Shown here piece after piece: positions 5,396 through 13,483 of a stretch of 32,000 nucleotides of DNA; within the stretch, counting starts at the first letter, position 1; each line of letters begins with the position of its first letter. The notes below the pieces were generated by a model. It had not been told where the DNA came from, made no database searches, and worked only from the letters and a program-made list of their open reading frames with translations. The translations under genes were made by a program, and so were the position numbers. The DNA is from an uncultured archaeon. GTDB lineage: Archaea > Asgardarchaeota > Thorarchaeia > Thorarchaeales > Thorarchaeaceae. The DNA is taken from positions 30,001-62,000 of the forward strand of contig CAZYLT010000013.1 in the NCBI GenBank assembly GCA_964648855.1, written 5' to 3'.

Positions 5396-5620
5396 CTATA
5401 TTGATACACAAGTTTCGGTGCTCTTGATTCCTGAAATCTCATGGATTTCAAAAACCACTCGGCGATAGTCTGATTTGTCTGGCAAATCAACATAGGCGAT
5501 GACATCATACGGTCCTGTCACCAAGTGCACCATTTCTACCTCATCGATTTCCTTGACCTTATCATATACTTGCTCAGCCTTTCCGGCCTCTACATGCATG
5601 AGAACCACAGCGGTAACCAA
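5396..5620 (-). CDS. Stand-alone Lrp/AsnC ligand-binding (RAM) domain protein
   Basis: AVVLMHVEAG...VHLVTGPYDVIAYV...ISGIKSTET, with no HTH. TTG start at 5620 downstream of GAGGGGGT. Confidence 0.88.
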   Translation of the reverse strand: MVTAVVLMHVEAGKAEQVYDKVKEIDEVEMVHLVTGPYDVIAYVDLPDKSDYRRVVFEIHEISGIKSTETCVSI

Positions 5621-5711
5621 TGAATTGACCCCCTCAAACTTTGCAGCTATACTATACATCCTTGTTTCAAAAAGATAGCTATTTCATTACTAGAGGGGTA
5701 TTCAACTGAAG

Positions 5712-6701
5712 TTATGATCTTGATTTTATGACCAGGATAACCAAAACTACTATGCTGAGAGAGCCTATAAGAAGAGAGATTTGTTCATAATCAATAAGAT
5801 AACCATCCACAATTCCGCCATTATCTCCTCCAGGTCCGCTGCCGGACCCGCTAATGCCTATCACCGGGTCGTAGAACAGAGATTCGTTGCCAAAATGCTC
5901 GAAAGCCAGGTATATAGTTTGACCAGCACCCTCACTATCAGTATCTGGAGATGTGCCTTTCACTGAAATTGTTCTGTTACCTGAGTAAGCCATTTCTGCG
6001 TATTCCATGTATGCAGGGCCAAACGTGAATTGGTTCCCTTCTTGACTGAAGTTATTGGGCGCAATTAATCCCTGATCATCCTCGTGAGGACTCTGTGAAA
6101 CTTCAAACTGAAATGCCAGTAGGGAGTCATCGTATATCCATTTCCATCCTGATAAGAAGATGCCGAATTTCAATTCATGTGGATTGCTTGCATTAATCTG
6201 GATGTGTATATCTATGGTAACCTCAAACTCCTGTTCTTGCGTCCCGATGGGATTTGTGGTAGTTGGTGGCGTTGTTGTGATTGTTGATAGAAACACTGCA
6301 TTGGTTGAGAAATTGAATTCAAGTGATTTGACGATTGAATTCTCCTCTATTGCATTAAACCCACTGAAGTTCCAATTGCTCATAGGCAATAGATACGGGA
6401 CGCCCGCAATTCTGTCCTGGGAAGGATCGAAAGCTCCGTTTTCATTCAAGTCAAGCACTTCAATGAATTTCAAGAAGATAAGATGGAAGTCAGTAGTTGA
6501 ACTCGTTGCGTTCCACCAATGGAAATGCGGAACTTGGGAACTGGCTGTGACTTTTGCACCCATGGAATCTGTGGTCACAGTCGCGACCCCTGCGCCATAA
6601 GAGTATTCGATTCCTCCATTCTGGGCAGATGCCAGGGGAACTATTAGCAATGCAAGGGTCACTGAAACTCCAAGTAGAACCCTGAATTGATTTTGTTTCA
6701 T
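5712..6701 (-). CDS. Type I membrane/surface protein, paralog A (predicted beta-rich luminal domain)
   Basis: Signal peptide (..PLASA), Dx[DN]xNG-like loop, Thr-rich insert, YDP motif, Gly linker, C-terminal TM helix and basic tail. GAGGTG RBS. Colinear with 6949..7935. Confidence 0.85.
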   Translation of the reverse strand: MKQNQFRVLLGVSVTLALLIVPLASAQNGGIEYSYGAGVATVTTDSMGAKVTASSQVPHFHWWNATSSTTDFHLIFLKFIEVLDLNENGAFDPSQDRIAGVPYLLPMSNWNFSGFNAIEENSIVKSLEFNFSTNAVFLSTITTTPPTTTNPIGTQEQEFEVTIDIHIQINASNPHELKFGIFLSGWKWIYDDSLLAFQFEVSQSPHEDDQGLIAPNNFSQEGNQFTFGPAYMEYAEMAYSGNRTISVKGTSPDTDSEGAGQTIYLAFEHFGNESLFYDPVIGISGSGSGPGGDNGGIVDGYLIDYEQISLLIGSLSIVVLVILVIKSRS

Positions 6702-6862
6702 CTCGACACCTCACTATTACATTCCCATTTTGCCCAATTGGGGAATTTTCAGTGATCCATATTTCATTATCTCTAATCCTTTTCCTGTACTGATGGTATT
6801 TCTTGTAGAGTTTTGCTCATTAAAGGTCTGTTGTTCCAAAGTCTTCAATTGAAGGATGGACA

Positions 6863-6932
6863 GGTACAATAAAATCATGGCGAGGTGGGAGCATGTACTC
6901 CGCACCTCGTTGATAGCGAGTGCTATTGTACC
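6863..6932 (-). other. Extended 3' RNA hairpin downstream of paralog B
   Basis: Outer 9-bp perfect inverted repeat ggtacaata/tattgtacc. Inner stem cgaggtg-ggag/ctcc-g-cacctcg at 6881-6909. Confidence 0.6.
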
Positions 6933-6948
6933 ATTATCATATGCCCTT

Positions 6949-7935
6949 TCAGCGTCGCAGCTTGACTATTGCAACGACCACTACCACAACAACGATTCCT
7001 CCTCCAATTAGCAGGAGCTGGTTGGATTCCATGATGCCATCAATTATGCCATCACCATCTCCACCATCGCTATCACCATTGGTTGATGATATGCCTAGGG
7101 TAGGATCGTATTCTAGGGTTTCTTCGCCAAAGTACTCAAATGCCAGATACACTGACTGTCCCTCTTCGTCACCAGTTCCTTCTCCAGAGGTACCGGCTAC
7201 TTGAACAGGTGTGTCGCCAGCCTGAGCTTGTTCTGCATATTCCATGTATCCTTCACCGAACTGGAACTCATTACCTTCTTGTACGAACTCAGGAGGTTCA
7301 TCGGTTCCATTATCCCCTTCGTGAGCACTCTCAGTGATAGTAAACTGAAAAACTAGAATGGAGTCATCATAGACCCAGTTCCAACCAGATATGATAAGAT
7401 CAAATTTCATCTCATGCGGATTGGCTGTATCAATGTGCACGCGGATCTGAATAGTCACATCGAAATTGGTTGGTTGTTGACCAGGAGTGATTGTAGTCGT
7501 AGGTACTGGGAGAGTAAAGGTTTCTGTTGTGGTGAAGTTGAAGTGAATTTCAGTCACAACCGAGTCTTCTTCAACGGTTTCGAAACCGCTGAAGTTCCAG
7601 TTCCCTGACGGAAGTAAGTATGGTGCTCCAACTAACTTATCAATTTCAGGATCAAATGCACCATCATTATCGGTGTCATTTGCCTCAAGCAGCTTGAGGA
7701 ACATCACATGATAGTCGGTCTCGTTCGAAGTTGCATTCCACCAAATAAAATGAGGAACCTGATTATAGGCTGTGACCTTAACACCGATCTCCCCGGTTGT
7801 CAGGCTAGCCATCCCTTCATTATATTGGTACTGTATTCCTTGCCCTTGCGCAGTCGCAACCGGCACTAATGCCAGTAGTGCAACTACCGCCAGAGCAGCT
7901 AAAATCTGTGTTTGTGTTGTGTTCATTCTGACCAC
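6949..7935 (-). CDS. Type I membrane/surface protein, paralog B
   Basis: Signal peptide (..PVATA), DTDNDG loop, KFDLIISGW, YDPTLG, Gly/Asp linker, poly-Val TM helix and KLRR tail. Confidence 0.87.
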   Translation of the reverse strand: MVRMNTTQTQILAALAVVALLALVPVATAQGQGIQYQYNEGMASLTTGEIGVKVTAYNQVPHFIWWNATSNETDYHVMFLKLLEANDTDNDGAFDPEIDKLVGAPYLLPSGNWNFSGFETVEEDSVVTEIHFNFTTTETFTLPVPTTTITPGQQPTNFDVTIQIRVHIDTANPHEMKFDLIISGWNWVYDDSILVFQFTITESAHEGDNGTDEPPEFVQEGNEFQFGEGYMEYAEQAQAGDTPVQVAGTSGEGTGDEEGQSVYLAFEYFGEETLEYDPTLGISSTNGDSDGGDGDGIIDGIMESNQLLLIGGGIVVVVVVVAIVKLRR

Positions 7936-8050: not shown

Positions 8051-8881
8051 TCATGTTAAAATCGTTAGCAGGATGAGATTCACATTAGTGACAATCAATG
8101 TAACAATCCCTGCACGTATCGGTCGAACGCTTCGTGATCTAGCCAAGGCGATTGTGAGGATATATGAACTCCACGAAATTGCACCCACAAGAAAGAGGGT
8201 CAAAATCCATCCTGAGATTGCTTGGGAAACTATCAAGAAATGAATTACCAAACCTGAGATGATATAGGGCAGAAACACAATTGGAAGCGACATAAACAGA
8301 GGAGGCGAGAAACCCCGATAACCAAGGATAATTGATGAAATCGATTCAACTAATAAATAGGTAGAAACCCAAGCGAGAAGAGTTGCTAGGATGGTAACCC
8401 CCAAGTCAAAAGGCCCTTCGATAAAGAAGAGTCCAATGGGTAGTAGTCCAACAAGGTGAGCCAAGTAGCCATATCCCCCAAGAAATAGAAGGATATCCAG
8501 CCAAAATCGCCAAGGATCTGCCTGGATTCTCTTTATTATGGGCATCATTGCCAATATGCTTAGCACTGTTGGTCCGCGACTAGTCCTCTTCTCAATCCAA
8601 TAGAAACTATCTTCTCCTTGTTCGAGTATATCGTAAGCAGACCGCCCAATTTCTGTTAGTCTGTACTGCTTATCCTCACTACGTTTTACTAGGGGACTTT
8701 CTCCCTTTAGCAGCACATCAATATGAAAATACAGAGTACCAGGCTCCAAATCAAGAATTTTCAGATCTGTATAGGACGCAGAGCCATGGCTTCCAATTAG
8801 AAGTATGATCTGTCGTCGAATATTGTGGGAAAGAGCATTGAACATGTCATCCAAGACAGATTTTTCATCCAATTTGCTCAT
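8051..8881 (-). CDS. Membrane-anchored ArsR-like winged HTH regulator (about 5 C-terminal TM helices, Yip1-like topology)
   Basis: N-terminal FNALSHNIRRQII...SYTDL...GTLYFHI...YRLTEIG, followed by a hydrophobic multi-pass domain. Confidence 0.8.
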   Translation of the reverse strand: MSKLDEKSVLDDMFNALSHNIRRQIILLIGSHGSASYTDLKILDLEPGTLYFHIDVLLKGESPLVKRSEDKQYRLTEIGRSAYDILEQGEDSFYWIEKRTSRGPTVLSILAMMPIIKRIQADPWRFWLDILLFLGGYGYLAHLVGLLPIGLFFIEGPFDLGVTILATLLAWVSTYLLVESISSIILGYRGFSPPLFMSLPIVFLPYIISGLVIHFLIVSQAISGWILTLFLVGAISWSSYILTIALARSRSVRPIRAGIVTLIVTNVNLILLTILT

Positions 8882-9010: not shown

Positions 9011-10117
9011 TCATCGAGAATGAGCTTGGAGTTCTTCAAACGGTGTATCCACAACCCACTGTCGACCAGTTTTCCAGTTGTTCTTCGACTCATTGTAGTT
9101 CTCTGGGTAGAACCAATACAAACACGAATGCCCTCCTACTGTATCCATGGTAAATACCTGTAGCCGGGGAAGAAGATGCCAGAGAGAGTAGAATAGATGA
9201 TGTTCGTGAGATGGAGGCATGCGTCCCCATAGAATTACACCTCCTGATTTCAATAAATCAACTGATAACGGAAAGGGAGGAGCACTCTTGAAAGAAAAGG
9301 CATTGAAAAGCTTGTTTCTATTAACGTTGTCGGCTTCATCACAATAGAATAATTTCGTCGATACAATATCAAATTGCGACCTATCAATTTGTGCTCTCAC
9401 TGACTCGATGTGGTTTTTCATGATGTCTATTACTTTCCTACTCGTTGAACTCTGAGAGATAGAATATTTTTCTCGAAGATTCTTCTGACTGATTTTCGCA
9501 TTTGATGTAAGATCCCGTAAAATCTTCAAGTCAATCATGCTGAATTCGCTGACTCTTCCCAAATGATTTGGTTCAATATCAGGCAGTTCATTAGGTGAAG
9601 ATGTGATTTCCTTCGACCATGAGGTCCAATCATATTGCCAAGACATCGTATCTGGTTGATAGTGGTCGAGATTTGTGACCGTGGTAGTTCTGTGGCCAGA
9701 ACTTGGTTCGACGACCACGTTGTCACAGATATCAATCTCCTTGAGTTTTGAGAGAAATTCTTTAAGATTGGCAACAGCAGATGCAGGAATATCAAACTGG
9801 GCAAAAATCCCAGGATAAGGCCCATATATACGCGATCGATAATGAGTATAAGGGTGAATGTCGCACGCCTTTTCGAGTCGTTCGATTTGGCGTAAATCGC
9901 TAGCTAGGAAGAAGACGATGTATCGATTCAAACCCAGGCTTGTCGGGTTGAATACAGCGATTGGGGCAGATAAGACACCTATATCTTTTAGGTGTTGCAG
10001 GTGTTTTTTTGCCGTTATCCAACTAGTTCCTGCTTTTTCAGCCAGCTCTCGTACGGACATAGTTGGAGCTAGCTCAATTAACTGGAGGAGTTTGATATCT
10101 AGCTCTGAGAGACCCAT
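9011..10117 (-). CDS. Tandem (duplicated) Lrp/AsnC-like HTH transcription regulator
   Basis: Two HTH starts, LSELDIKLLQLIE..MSVRELAEKAG and FSMIDLKILRDLTSNAKISQKNL, each followed by an alpha/beta effector-like region. Confidence 0.8.
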   Translation of the reverse strand: MGLSELDIKLLQLIELAPTMSVRELAEKAGTSWITAKKHLQHLKDIGVLSAPIAVFNPTSLGLNRYIVFFLASDLRQIERLEKACDIHPYTHYRSRIYGPYPGIFAQFDIPASAVANLKEFLSKLKEIDICDNVVVEPSSGHRTTTVTNLDHYQPDTMSWQYDWTSWSKEITSSPNELPDIEPNHLGRVSEFSMIDLKILRDLTSNAKISQKNLREKYSISQSSTSRKVIDIMKNHIESVRAQIDRSQFDIVSTKLFYCDEADNVNRNKLFNAFSFKSAPPFPLSVDLLKSGGVILWGRMPPSHEHHLFYSLWHLLPRLQVFTMDTVGGHSCLYWFYPENYNESKNNWKTGRQWVVDTPFEELQAHSR

Positions 10118-10890: not shown

Positions 10891-12201
10891 TTACACAGTG
10901 TAGGAGTCCGTAGTTTCCACATTCAGGGTGGAGTCGTATGTGCAGTCTGTTTTCACTACGTCCACGACGGATACTGTATGGGTCCCAGCAGCCACATCAT
11001 TTTGAGTGAAGGTAGCCACTCCGTTGGAGTCGGTGGTTGCCATCAGTGTGACCATACTGCCATCAGGATGTGTCCAGTCGATTTTAACATCAGCATTTGA
11101 CACAGCATTTCCATTTGTGTCAACAATTGTAACAAAGCAGTGAAGGTCCGTTCGCGGAAATCGTCCACGAATTATGTCTTCATCCCAGGATATATCCTGA
11201 ACATATATTGTTGACGCTGAACCATCCCCATCTCCACTATCGCCTGTAACACCAGCTTCAGTAGAGGCGTGATAAATCATCTTGCCAATTGAGGTAGCGC
11301 CTAGCTGCATAACCTCCACATTCCAAGAATAGAGCCTGTCAGTGGTTCCTTCTACTGTAATACCGTGGTGGGTTGTACAGATTTTGTTATCGAAACCATA
11401 GACGATTTCTTCTAGCACTTCTTGGTAATGGTCGCCAACATCTTGCCCCTCATACCCACTGGTCCGTCCATCTCGGTCGGATCCCATATTAGCGTATTGA
11501 GCACACCATAGTGCCTCATCGTGAGCAGAATTATTGACAAAACTGATTGTGATGTCTGGACGGATAGCATTGAATTCGTATTCGTAAGCCTCATACGCGC
11601 GCGTGGTTGATTTCTCATGGCAGCTATGATAGCTCATTCGATAACTATAGCTTCCTACTCTTCCACTGTAGGTCTCATGCTCCTTCCCAGTATCGGTTGC
11701 ATCATCATCAGTATGCATGGGATTAGAGATATCTGCCAGATAATGTGCAAGGAGTCCCATGGATTTTCGAGCATCCGAAGCGTACGAGGAACCACTTACC
11801 TCACCCTCATTCACCCAATACGTCAGATTCCCCACTACCCAATCATAACACGTCTGGATTGCTTCTGGAGCCCCTCTATCGGGGGGTCCCCCTCTATAAC
11901 CGTAGTCTCCAAAATCATAATTGTGGTTTGACCAGTCCTGATATTCCATATCAGGCACCTCGGTCCAGTAGAGATACTCCGCCATGTCTTCTTCTAACCA
12001 AGTTACCAGATTAGGATAGTCCTGCTTCACGTAGACCATTCCATATTTAGCAAATTGGTCATGTGTTCCATATTCCGGGTCGTCTTGTGTTCTGCTTGCT
12101 CCTCCATTGCTCCAAGCTTGGGCATTAATAACCCCAAATGCAAGGGGAATTAGCAACACACACAAGAATAGACCTAGAACAAACCTGTTTCCAGTGTTCA
12201 T
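10891..12201 (-). CDS. Secreted zinc-dependent phospholipase C / S1-P1 nuclease-fold enzyme with C-terminal Ig-like domain
   Basis: Signal peptide ending AQA|W gives an N-terminal Trp. Zn-ligand motifs YGTHD, PD..Y.D..NH, HYLADISNPMH and HSCHE. C-terminal TTDSNGVATF Ig-like domain. Start set at ATG 12201. Confidence 0.85.
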   Translation of the reverse strand: MNTGNRFVLGLFLCVLLIPLAFGVINAQAWSNGGASRTQDDPEYGTHDQFAKYGMVYVKQDYPNLVTWLEEDMAEYLYWTEVPDMEYQDWSNHNYDFGDYGYRGGPPDRGAPEAIQTCYDWVVGNLTYWVNEGEVSGSSYASDARKSMGLLAHYLADISNPMHTDDDATDTGKEHETYSGRVGSYSYRMSYHSCHEKSTTRAYEAYEYEFNAIRPDITISFVNNSAHDEALWCAQYANMGSDRDGRTSGYEGQDVGDHYQEVLEEIVYGFDNKICTTHHGITVEGTTDRLYSWNVEVMQLGATSIGKMIYHASTEAGVTGDSGDGDGSASTIYVQDISWDEDIIRGRFPRTDLHCFVTIVDTNGNAVSNADVKIDWTHPDGSMVTLMATTDSNGVATFTQNDVAAGTHTVSVVDVVKTDCTYDSTLNVETTDSYTV

Positions 12202-12442
12202 TTTTTCATCCTCCCGTACGCGAATTTGAATTCGGGTCAAGTAATGACTCCATCAATTCCAACTTAATAGTGTACCCGTCGGTTGTATGTTCGGTAATAT
12301 GAACGCGCCCAGTCCAGTCTTTGGGTATAGTATATACATCATTATATAAAGGAGTTAATAAAAAACCCAAAATATATTAGATGCCGAATGAGCAACTGGA
12401 CAATCTGATTTGATTAATCGGATAGTTATACAGGTGAAAAGA

Positions 12443-13483
12443 ATGAAAAAGAGGTTCTTCGCGGGAACGGTAATCATCTTCTTAGTTGTGGCCATCATGC
12501 CCGTTGCCACTTATGCAGTGGCGGTAGCTGATGATGGATTCACAATCTTCCCTGGCCCACCAAGCTGGATTGGTGGCGGGGATGATACCACATATGATTG
12601 GGAGGATGATGATCCTGAAACCCCGTGGGGCATTGAACGAGTTTTCAATGGAAACTATGATGGAGATCAATATACTGCTTCAGTGCAGGTAGCCATCCTC
12701 GACACTGGCATTGACCTAGATCATCCAGACCTGCAACCCAATATTGTCTGGTGGGCGGATGCGACGGGGAGAGGGGATGCAGATGACAAGCATGGACATG
12801 GAACGCATTGCGCTGGGACCGTTGGTGCCATTCGTGACAACAATGGAGTAGTGGGAATGTATGCAAACGTTGACTTCTATGCAATCAAAGTCCTTGGCAA
12901 CGGCGGTAGCGGAGATTGGGCAGACCTGAGCTATGGTATATATTTAGCCAGTCAAGGACCAGATGGCGTTGAAGGTACTGACGATGATGCTGACGTGATA
13001 AGCATGAGCTTAGGTGGCTCTTCTGCTCCAGAAGAGGTTCATGATGCCATTATACACGCATACAATCTTGGAATTGTATTGGTAGCTGCGGCTGGTAACG
13101 ACGGAGATGGAGATCCGTCAACCGAGGAGATTTCATATCCAGCTGCCTATGCCGAGGTAATTGCAGTGGGTGCCACAGAAAAGGATGACAGTGTTGCCTC
13201 CTTCTCTAATACTGGATCCTATCTCGAGGTTGCTGCACCCGGTGTGAGTATCTACAGCACATACAAGAATGGTGGCTATGACACATTGTCAGGCACCTCA
13301 ATGGCATGTCCGCATGTTGCTGGACTTATCGCGCTAATCATTGCGATAAATGGCAAGATGCCCGTAGGAACATTTGATGATACCAGTGATACCACAATCC
13401 GAGGGTACCTGCATAGTACAGCTCTCGATTTAGGACCAAGTGGCTGGGATCCAGCCTATGGTTACGGTTTGATTCAAAGATAG
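12443..13483 (+). CDS. Secreted S8 subtilisin, Tk-subtilisin-like
   Basis: Catalytic ILDTG, HGTHCAG and GTSMA; oxyanion AAGN; PWGIERV; C-terminal PVGTFDD...DLGPSGWD..YGYG. AGGTGA RBS precedes ATG 12443. Confidence 0.96.
   Translation: MKKRFFAGTVIIFLVVAIMPVATYAVAVADDGFTIFPGPPSWIGGGDDTTYDWEDDDPETPWGIERVFNGNYDGDQYTASVQVAILDTGIDLDHPDLQPNIVWWADATGRGDADDKHGHGTHCAGTVGAIRDNNGVVGMYANVDFYAIKVLGNGGSGDWADLSYGIYLASQGPDGVEGTDDDADVISMSLGGSSAPEEVHDAIIHAYNLGIVLVAAAGNDGDGDPSTEEISYPAAYAEVIAVGATEKDDSVASFSNTGSYLEVAAPGVSIYSTYKNGGYDTLSGTSMACPHVAGLIALIIAINGKMPVGTFDDTSDTTIRGYLHSTALDLGPSGWDPAYGYGLIQR

What the first reader, a model, noticed from the sequence alone, without database searches (positions are those of the whole stretch)
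5712..7935. Tandem surface glycoprotein pair resembling eukaryotic lysosomal GLMP/NCU-G1 and ComC/SAARP supersandwich proteins
Seen: two colinear paralogs of about 330 aa. Each has a signal peptide, F.K..E..D...NG/DG, PY.L...W, KF.(I/L)..SGW.W...DS.L.FQF, YMEYAE.A, YLAF..F....YDP.(I/L)G, a Gly linker, one C-terminal TM helix, a short basic tail, several NxS/T sequons and a Thr/Pro-rich insert. Recalled knowledge: human GLMP has a similar motif order (VFTRLLEFD..PYSL..FSW; QLEVAL.G...SLFGLEV; YLQW; FNLTFG..YLSW..LLG, then a TM helix), and amoebozoan ComC-type and coral SAARP domains carry KF.I.I..W.F...(Y/F)DP motifs. Inference: these may be archaeal members of a eukaryote-associated supersandwich membrane glycoprotein family. 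If the host is Asgard they are candidate undescribed eukaryotic-signature proteins, possibly transporter accessory or surface-coat subunits. The resemblance was judged by eye.
Basis: partly seen in the sequence, partly recalled or inferred. Interest (0 to 1): 0.8.

Follow-up and report, generated by a model that had tools for sequence, protein, structure and literature searches.

The report
Archaeal relatives of lysosomal protein GLMP
Two neighbouring genes of an Asgard (Thorarchaeota-type) archaeon encode membrane-anchored surface proteins, rich in glycosylation sites, whose fold is closest to GLMP, a protein described so far only from eukaryotic lysosomes; such genes almost always sit next to membrane-bound gene regulators, which suggests a role in surface sensing.

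Summary
There are two tandem paralogs on the minus strand (5712-6701 and 6949-7935; 52% identity). Each has a signal peptide, an acidic, Cys-free, sequon-rich ectodomain, one C-terminal TM helix and a short basic tail.

The GLMP idea holds. A confident AF2 model is closest to the solved GLMP luminal domain (Z 19.8, rmsd 2.6 A over 215 residues); the best generic supersandwich domain scores 14.4. GLMP also ranks first of 48,161 PDB representatives. The window proteins do not hit Pfam NCU-G1 themselves. Their Asgard relatives do (one above Pfam's cut-off), and hhalign joins the two sets at 99.5%. ComC/SAARP gets no support.

The family is common in the host phylum (164 of 301 genomes). It also occurs in Bathyarchaeota and Korarchaeota, so it is Asgard-enriched, not Asgard-exclusive.

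No MFS transporter lies beside any host copy. The conserved neighbour is a membrane-anchored winged-helix regulator, in two module types:
- an ArsR-type wHTH fused to five TM helices (window 8051-8881), adjacent in all 24 close orthologs and in other Asgard families;
- a single-pass MarR-type regulator beside a distant paralog (38 of the 40 best matches).

Most likely role: extracytoplasmic partner or sensor subunits of these regulators. That role is inferred, not shown.

The parts
5712..6701 (-). Paralog A (329 aa): GLMP-like type-I membrane glycoprotein. It is the faster-evolving copy of the tandem pair.
   Evidence: ORF. AF2 model with pLDDT 85.7. GLMP is the best structural match. A-clade support 100/99, branch 0.45 against 0.10 for B.
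6624..6701 (-). Signal peptide of A (residues 1-26, cleavage predicted after ASA before Q27)
   Evidence: Sequence. P22, A26 and Q27 are invariant or nearly so across the family. N-terminal helix in the model.
5847..6623 (-). Supersandwich ectodomain of A (residues 27-285): acidic, Cys-free, 7 sequons, Thr/Pro-rich insert at about 139-150
   Evidence: All-beta model. Aligned to GLMP 6nyq_C residues 40-358 at Z 19.8. Composition.
5718..5789 (-). C-terminal TM helix and basic tail of A (residues 305-328)
   Evidence: Helix 305-328 in the model. The alignment to GLMP in 8r8q_B runs through the TM helix.
6949..7935 (-). Paralog B (328 aa from GTG 7935; probably 325 aa from ATG 7926): GLMP-like type-I membrane glycoprotein. 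It is the conserved copy directly downstream of the wHTH-membrane gene.
   Evidence: ORF. 52% identity to A. The database copy is 325 aa. Position in the tree and synteny. The profile of NCU-G1-positive Asgard proteins hits B at 74.9 bits.
6952..7023 (-). C-terminal TM helix and KLRR tail of B (residues about 305-328)
   Evidence: Sequence and alignment with A.
8051..8881 (-). Conserved neighbour (276 aa): an ArsR/SmtB-type winged-helix domain (residues 1-100) fused to a membrane domain of five TM helices. It is the proposed partner of the GLMP-like proteins.
   Evidence: HTH_20 in 23 of 23 family members, HTH_5 in 13, weak Yip1 in 4. Model pLDDT 85.3 with five long helices. SmtB Z 13.5, rmsd 1.6 over 90 residues. 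Adjacent to a GLMP-like gene in all 24 close orthologs and in four other Asgard families (f3, f12, f15, f16).

Best explanation
The two genes encode archaeal homologs of the eukaryotic GLMP/NCU-G1 family. Each protein is exported by a Sec signal peptide. It is anchored by one C-terminal TM helix with a 2-4 residue basic cytoplasmic tail. It displays an acidic, probably heavily N-glycosylated beta-supersandwich ectodomain on the cell surface.

I propose that these proteins act as extracytoplasmic partner subunits (sensor, co-receptor or stabiliser) of membrane-anchored winged-helix transcription regulators encoded beside them. Here that regulator is the ArsR-type wHTH fused to five TM helices at 8051-8881. 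The proposed contact is through the TM helix and the juxtamembrane region, much as GLMP's single TM helix docks onto the polytopic MFSD1 and as ToxS serves ToxR.

Shown: the architecture, the fold, the homology chain to NCU-G1, and the conserved synteny with two kinds of membrane-anchored regulator. Inferred: glycosylation, a physical complex, and signalling. My confidence that this is a true GLMP-family homolog is about 0.8. My confidence in the regulator-partner mechanism is about 0.4-0.45.
For: Fold:
- The AF2 model has pLDDT 85.7 and pTM 0.75.
- Foldseek ranks GLMP first and second (6nyq_C E 2e-8; 8r8q_B E 5e-7).
- VIA-align gives Z 19.8, rmsd 2.6 A over 215 residues to the GLMP luminal domain, against 14.4 for the best generic supersandwich.
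- GLMP ranks first of 48,161 PDB representatives (Z 17.6; next 13.3).
- The ESM Atlas model of the relative L010 has the eukaryotic GLMP cluster as its nearest structure (TM 0.59/0.55 over 253 residues).

Sequence:
- NCU-G1 is the Pfam family hit by most divergent members (4 of 53).
- The NCU-G1 HMM hits 43 of 301 Asgard genomes and 0 of 14 control genomes. 36 of its 49 hits cover model positions of about 31-204 in ORFs of 281-450 aa.
- In 10 of 10 extracted proteins NCU-G1 is the top Pfam hit, and one scores 28.7 bits against a cut-off of 27.
- The Thor-only profile hits that protein at 30.7 bits.
- hhalign of the Thor family against the NCU-G1-positive set gives 99.5%, E 3.5e-22 over 202 columns.
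- The reverse profile hits B at 74.9 bits and A at 57.9 bits, and hits nothing in the genome outside the four copies.

Partner:
- All 24 wHTH-5TM orthologs with E<1e-80 lie directly beside a family gene. The adjacency persists in other orientations in families f3, f12, f15 and f16.
- The same pairing occurs in one non-Asgard genome (L049).
- A second module pairs the distant paralog with a single-pass MarR-type regulator (P0269): 38 of the 40 best matches are adjacent. It is also seen in family f7 (L011).
- GLMP itself works through its TM helix and one luminal loop on a polytopic partner (PMC11252000).
Against: - The window proteins give no direct Pfam NCU-G1 hit, even at E<=10. The sequence link is transitive and covers only the N-terminal half of the Pfam model.
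- HMM profiles of the family do not find the GLMP chains among PDB sequences.
- No eukaryotic sequence could be aligned or placed in a tree here. Common descent rather than convergence within the supersandwich superfold therefore rests on the Z-score gap and the Pfam hits.
- Adjacency to a regulator is equally expected if the regulator merely controls transcription of a surface-protein gene.
- One host copy (C36) lies beside transketolase with no regulator.
- The Bathyarchaeota locus L023 shows no such neighbour within 5 kb.
Confidence: 0.5

Rival explanations
1. They are structural surface-coat glycoproteins (a glycocalyx or an S-layer-associated layer). The neighbouring regulators only control their transcription, and there is no physical complex.
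For: Sequon density at the 97.7th percentile, a very acidic Cys-free ectodomain, a Thr/Pro-rich insert and a C-terminal anchor resemble archaeal surface glycoproteins. There are weak C-terminal matches to HVO_1552_C and GVDTG_CTERM sorting domains. The genome holds several paralogs. The C36 copy has no adjacent regulator. Divergent regulator-target gene pairs occur in family f12. The surrounding block is rich in exported proteins.
Against: An ectodomain of about 255 aa is small for a lattice-forming coat protein. Two unrelated kinds of regulator are both membrane-anchored and both tightly linked to this family across deep divergences, which is more than simple transcriptional control requires. 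No abundance or expression data are available.
Confidence: 0.28
2. They are accessory subunits of a polytopic transporter, as GLMP is for the MFS dipeptide uniporter MFSD1. They would protect or stabilise it on the outer face of the membrane.
For: Closest fold and identical topology to GLMP, including the TM helix. GLMP's known role is as an MFSD1 accessory (PMC11252000). The genome encodes many MFS transporters (about 30 HMM matches).
Against: None of the MFS_1 matches lies beside any of the three loci; the nearest is about 10 kb from the C1 copy. No transporter gene is conserved next to family members in the contexts read. An unlinked partner cannot be excluded.
Confidence: 0.08
3. The ectodomain is a generic galactose-mutarotase-like supersandwich carbohydrate-binding module with no specific descent shared with GLMP. 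The resemblance would be convergence within a common superfold plus a common membrane topology.
For: Hundreds of glycosidase, lyase and mutarotase supersandwich domains score Z 10-14. Identity to GLMP is only 11-14%. The window proteins do not hit NCU-G1 directly.
Against: GLMP stands 4-5 Z units above every other PDB entry in two searches. Of 24,736 Pfam models, NCU-G1 is the one that recurs among relatives, with one hit above the curated cut-off and none in the controls. The Atlas neighbour of L010 is the eukaryotic GLMP cluster.
Confidence: 0.12

Closest known systems
GLMP / NCU-G1 (Pfam PF15065), the glycosylated lysosomal membrane protein and accessory subunit of MFSD1 (PDB 6NYQ, 8R8Q)
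   Same: Type-I topology: signal peptide, a luminal/extracellular supersandwich domain of about 250-300 aa, one C-terminal TM helix and a very short cytosolic tail. Many N-glycosylation sequons. Best structural match by a clear margin. Asgard relatives hit the Pfam model.
   Different: Prokaryotic, so presumably at the cell surface rather than in a lysosome. 11-14% identity, and no direct Pfam hit for the window proteins. No linked MFS transporter. Encoded beside membrane-anchored wHTH regulators. Cys-free and strongly acidic.
Galactose-mutarotase-like supersandwich domains of glycoside hydrolases and polysaccharide lyases (GH38 C-terminal domain, LacZ domain 5, heparinase II/III C-terminal domain, GalM)
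   Same: Same superfold (Z 11-14, rmsd 3-4 A over 180-210 residues).
   Different: Those are soluble enzymes or enzyme domains, often with a sugar-binding or catalytic site. This is a stand-alone membrane-anchored domain that scores clearly lower against them than against GLMP.
Membrane-bound one-component regulators with a co-encoded extracytoplasmic accessory protein (ToxR-ToxS and TcpP-TcpH of Vibrio; from general knowledge)
   Same: A membrane-anchored winged-helix DNA-binding protein encoded next to a single-pass protein whose bulk lies outside the cytoplasm.
   Different: No sequence or fold relation to ToxS or TcpH. The regulator here is ArsR-type with five TM helices, or MarR-type with one. 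No physical interaction has been shown.
ComC supersandwich domain (Pfam PF22933 ComC_SSD) and coral SAARP proteins
   Different: No HMM match in the host genome or in any scanned family member.

Membership tests
GLMP / NCU-G1 (PF15065) | Match to the Pfam NCU-G1 HMM at or above the gathering score (27 bits) | tested here: not met
   A and B give no NCU-G1 hit even at E<=10. Relatives do: L010 scores 28.7 bits, nine others give E 1e-5 to 2e-3 with NCU-G1 as the top hit, and 43 of 301 Asgard genomes have a hit against 0 of 14 controls. I therefore file the window proteins as distant homologs (a sister family), not as Pfam-defined members.
GLMP / NCU-G1 (PF15065) | Luminal-domain fold closest to solved GLMP | tested here: met
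   6nyq_C: Z 19.8, rmsd 2.6 A over 215 residues; the next family scores 14.4. GLMP ranks first of 48,161 representatives. Foldseek ranks it first and second.
GLMP / NCU-G1 (PF15065) | Type-I topology: signal peptide, one C-terminal TM helix, short cytosolic tail | tested here: met
   Sequence. Model helices 2-19 and 305-328. The alignment to 8r8q_B extends through the TM helix. The same architecture is seen in 12 of 12 NCU-G1-positive Asgard proteins.
GLMP / NCU-G1 (PF15065) | Heavy N-glycosylation of the luminal domain | not testable with these tools
   Only sequons can be counted: 7 in each protein, the 97.7th percentile of the proteome. Actual glycosylation needs glycoproteomics.
GLMP / NCU-G1 (PF15065) | Obligate complex with an MFSD1-type MFS transporter | tested here: inconclusive
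   No MFS gene lies beside any host copy or in the contexts read. Gene linkage is not required for a complex, so this does not exclude one.
Transitive homology of the window family to NCU-G1-positive Asgard proteins | Significant profile-profile and profile-sequence matches over most of the domain | tested here: met
   hhalign A1 against A3: 99.5%, E 3.5e-22, 202 columns. The A1 HMM hits L010, L012, L013 and L014 at 31-58 bits. The A3 HMM hits B at 74.9 and A at 57.9 bits.
ComC_SSD (PF22933) / SAARP | Match to the ComC_SSD HMM | tested here: not met
   0 matches in the host genome at E<=10. Absent from the scans of 53 and 10 family members.
Galactose-mutarotase-like supersandwich superfold | Two-layer beta-supersandwich aligned over about 180-210 residues with Z above 10 to several member families | tested here: met
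   GH38, GalM, LacZ domain 5, heparinases and GH65/GH97 N-domains score Z 10-14.
ArsR/SmtB winged-helix regulators (the neighbour at 8051-8881) | wHTH fold and HTH_20/HTH_5 profile match | tested here: met
   HTH_20 in 23 of 23 members (best E 4.9e-8) and HTH_5 in 13. SmtB 8qkf_B: Z 13.5, rmsd 1.6 over 90 residues. The window copy alone is sub-threshold (E 0.046).

The most novel reading that the evidence does not exclude
Eukaryotic GLMP descends from an archaeal (Asgard-lineage) cell-surface glycoprotein whose original job was to serve as the outward-facing partner of polytopic or single-pass membrane-anchored transcription regulators. On this reading, the 'single-pass glycoprotein docks on a membrane partner' design of the lysosomal GLMP-MFSD1 complex was inherited from an archaeal envelope-signalling module that has not been described.
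Probability: 0.3. Interest if true: 0.8.

Novelty: new variant of a known kind. Interest (0 to 1): 0.66.

Why it matters
GLMP/NCU-G1 is described as a eukaryotic lysosomal membrane protein. I found no paper in the searchable library that links it to archaea.

Showing that Asgard archaea, and some Bathyarchaeota and Korarchaeota, carry a large family with the same topology and the closest fold gives a prokaryotic root for a component of the endolysosomal membrane. It adds a membrane glycoprotein to the list of eukaryote-like proteins in archaea.

Separately, the tight and repeatedly rearranged linkage to two kinds of membrane-anchored winged-helix regulators defines a candidate archaeal transmembrane signalling module. 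That module can be tested directly, and it could suggest what GLMP-like domains recognise.

Tried and rejected
- Complex prediction of the wHTH-5TM protein (alignment A4) with paralog B (alignment A5, residues 28-328) returned no verdict: score 0.00, controls not run. I do not use it either way.
- Sequencing-run search: only DNA runs from microbial-mat metagenomes hold the locus and no RNA holder is listed.
- HMM profiles A1, A2 and A3 against PDB sequences gave no GLMP hit, only chance matches at E 0.16-0.7.
- Protein-atlas feature search gave no usable hit for A or for L010. The structure part was useful.
- The word-indexed profile search with A2 returned only 14 close relatives.
- NCBIfam gave only chance C-terminal hits.
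- The sigma-70 promoter and terminator scan is not meaningful for an archaeon and was at background.
- I could not obtain eukaryotic NCU-G1 sequences by reference. So there is no direct profile-profile comparison or joint phylogeny, and I did not type sequences from memory.
- The idea of an ancient A/B heterodimer is rejected. A/B is a single duplication inside one archaeal family, with an independent duplication in G098.
Full report
**1. Observation**

The window holds two co-linear minus-strand ORFs, A (5712-6701, 329 aa) and B (6949-7935, 328 aa from a GTG). B more likely starts at the ATG at 7926, because the database copy is 325 aa. A and B are 52% identical over 262 residues (E 2e-96).

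Each protein has:
- a signal peptide ending A-x-A before Q;
- a beta-rich ectodomain of about 255 aa;
- a Gly/Ser/Asp linker;
- one C-terminal TM helix;
- a tail of 2-4 basic residues.

Each carries 7 NxS/T sequons, which puts it at the 97.7th percentile of the genome's ORFs of 200 aa or more. Both are strongly acidic (pI 4.1-4.3) and have no Cys. They form the conserved core of a family with 217 hits in the 90%-clustered collection.

**2. Host**

All named close homologs come from Thorarchaeota or other Asgard MAGs. The assembly is 3.1 Mb and 94.6% complete. Its DNA is held by microbial-mat metagenome runs.

**3. Fold**

An AF2 model built from a 34-sequence alignment is confident (pLDDT 85.7, pTM 0.75).

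| Search | GLMP result | Best other result |
|---|---|---|
| Foldseek against the PDB | 6nyq_C E 2.2e-8; 8r8q_B E 4.8e-7 | GH38, LacZ and lyase supersandwich domains, E 1e-6 to 1e-4 |
| VIA-align second look | 6nyq_C Z 19.8, rmsd 2.6 A, 215 residues; 8r8q_B Z 17.6, running through the TM helix | GH38 2wyi_B, Z 14.4 |
| VIA-align over 48,161 PDB representatives, no Foldseek | 8r8q_B rank 1, Z 17.6 | Z 13.3 |

The match to 6nyq_C, which lacks the TM helix, shows that the ectodomain alone drives the result. The published description of GLMP as a beta-sandwich luminal domain plus one TM helix packed against MFSD1 agrees with this architecture (PMC11252000).

**4. Sequence link to NCU-G1**

A and B hit no Pfam or NCBIfam family. 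The NCU-G1 HMM does not find them in the genome. The link comes through relatives:
- When 53 divergent relatives from the exhaustive search were scanned one by one, NCU-G1 was the Pfam model hit by the most members (4 of 53, best E 0.0049).
- In reverse, the NCU-G1 HMM hit 43 of 301 genomes of the host phylum at E<=0.1 and 0 of 14 control genomes. 36 of the 49 hits cover model positions of about 31-204 in ORFs of 281-450 aa.
- At least eight of those hits fall inside ORFs already found by the Thor-family profile.
- Twelve such ORFs all have a signal peptide, a C-terminal TM helix and a basic tail.
- For 10 of 10 scanned, NCU-G1 is the top Pfam hit (E 9e-7 to 2e-3). One scores 28.7 bits against the 27-bit cut-off.
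- The Thor-only profile A1 hits these proteins at 25-214 bits.
- The A3 profile hits B (74.9 bits), A (57.9 bits) and the two other host copies, and nothing else in the genome.
- The ESM Atlas's own model of L010 has the eukaryotic 'Glycosylated lysosomal membrane protein' cluster as its nearest structure (TM 0.59/0.55 over 253 residues).

I read this as distant but genuine homology. The window proteins belong to a sister family, not to the Pfam-defined family. ComC_SSD finds nothing.

**5. Distribution**

- Host phylum: the family profile matches 164 of 301 sampled genomes, covering 48 of 70 genera.
- Outside Asgard: relatives are labelled Bathyarchaeota and Korarchaeota.
- The divergent profile matches 41 of 401 genomes in the phylum of a Bathyarchaeota genome, mostly in ORFs of 450-780 aa.
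- Only two of those genomes give credible NCU-G1 hits.
- Atlas clusters from Bathyarchaeota and Thermoplasmatota share the fold.
- No bacterial source appeared among the 20 clusters whose names I looked up, but bacteria were not searched systematically.

The family is archaeal and Asgard-enriched, not an Asgard-only signature.

**6. Paralogy**

The host genome has four copies: A and B in the window, a copy on C36 beside transketolase (a context shared with P0028), and a distant 386-aa copy on C1.

A maximum-likelihood tree puts A and B in separate clades shared by four genera (A clade 100/99). The A branches are longer (0.45 against 0.10). G098 has an independent tandem duplication. The tandem pair is therefore a lineage-specific duplication, and B is the conserved copy.

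**7. Context**

No MFS gene lies near any copy. The conserved neighbour is a regulator, in two module types.

*Module 1 (this window).* The gene at 8051-8881 sits 115-124 bp upstream of B. It encodes an ArsR/SmtB-type winged helix (HTH_20 in 23 of 23 family members; SmtB Z 13.5) fused to five TM helices, with a weak resemblance to Yip1.
- All 24 orthologs with E<1e-80 in the host's family lie directly next to a GLMP-like gene, often with a further paralog on the other side.
- The adjacency persists in families f3, f12, f15 and f16, co-directional or divergent.
- It also occurs in one genome of the non-Asgard sample (L049).

*Module 2 (contig C1).* The distant C1 copy is directly upstream of P0269. 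P0269 is a single-pass protein with a signal peptide, a sequon-rich exported domain, one TM helix and a cytoplasmic MarR-type winged helix (DUF7343, E 5e-18).
- 38 of the 40 best P0269-like genes in 71 genomes have the C1-type GLMP-like gene within about 250 bp.
- A similar pair occurs in family f7 (L011).

**8. Mechanism**

The architecture, the fold, the homology chain and the synteny are shown. The rest is inferred.

I infer that these proteins are N-glycosylated surface proteins that work with membrane-anchored winged-helix regulators, most simply as their extracytoplasmic sensor or stabilising subunits. The proposed contact is through the TM helix and the juxtamembrane region, which parallels GLMP on MFSD1 and ToxS with ToxR.

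Rivals:
- a structural surface coat that the regulators merely control (0.28);
- an unlinked transporter accessory (0.08);
- a convergent generic supersandwich (0.12).

The single complex-prediction job returned no verdict and no RNA data exist, so the mechanism remains untested.

**9. Verdict**

- The ComC/SAARP part is not supported.
- The 'Asgard-specific' angle needs qualifying.
- The transporter idea is replaced by a better-supported link to membrane-bound regulators.

No prior description was found in the searchable literature. I rate this a new variant of a known kind, with interest of about 0.66.

Noticed in passing
window 8051-8881 (-): The membrane domain of the ArsR-type wHTH protein has five TM helices and invariant W171, P205 and W237. 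In 4 of 23 family members it weakly matches Pfam Yip1 (best E 1.8e-4). The protein family is found in 187 of 301 genomes of the phylum. Its membrane domain was not compared with solved structures, because the wHTH domain filled the hit list.
   Followed up: partly
L009:6154-7143 (-) = G000:C1:213153-214142 (P0269): A single-pass transmembrane regulator: signal peptide, sequon-rich exported domain, TM helix at about 224-246, and a cytoplasmic MarR-type wHTH (DUF7343). It is present in 58 of 71 genomes of the host's family, often in two copies, each next to a GLMP-like gene.
   Followed up: partly
L047:1469-3544 (+) (G048:C28); also P0135 (658 aa) and P0141 (698 aa): Long forms of the family (about 650-700 aa) match the profile in several stretches, which suggests tandem GLMP-like domains in one polypeptide. 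Bathyarchaeota forms (450-780 aa) carry extra domains such as a carboxypeptidase-regulatory-like domain.
   Followed up: no
L008:4612-5565 (-) (G000:C36) and L026/L027: The third close paralog lies next to a full-length transketolase. The same neighbourhood (transketolase upstream, a TFIIB-domain gene downstream) is seen for P0028 in other Thorarchaeota contigs. This copy has no adjacent regulator.
   Followed up: partly
window 9011-10117 (-) and 5396-5659 (-): The module is flanked by a 368-aa protein with two winged-helix regions (HTH_24 at the N-terminus and a MarR-like region at about 196-228) and by an 87-aa protein that has only the Lrp/AsnC ligand-binding domain. I did not examine whether either is conserved with the module.
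   Followed up: no
window 10891-13483: A 449-aa exported protein with a C-terminal Big_1 Ig-like domain lies divergent from an S8 subtilase (357 aa). Together with the GLMP-like pair this forms a block rich in exported proteins.
   Followed up: no
window 6702-6948: The 247-bp spacer between B and A is about twice as long as the 115-124 bp spacer between the wHTH gene and B, so A may have its own promoter. Not analysed further.
   Followed up: no
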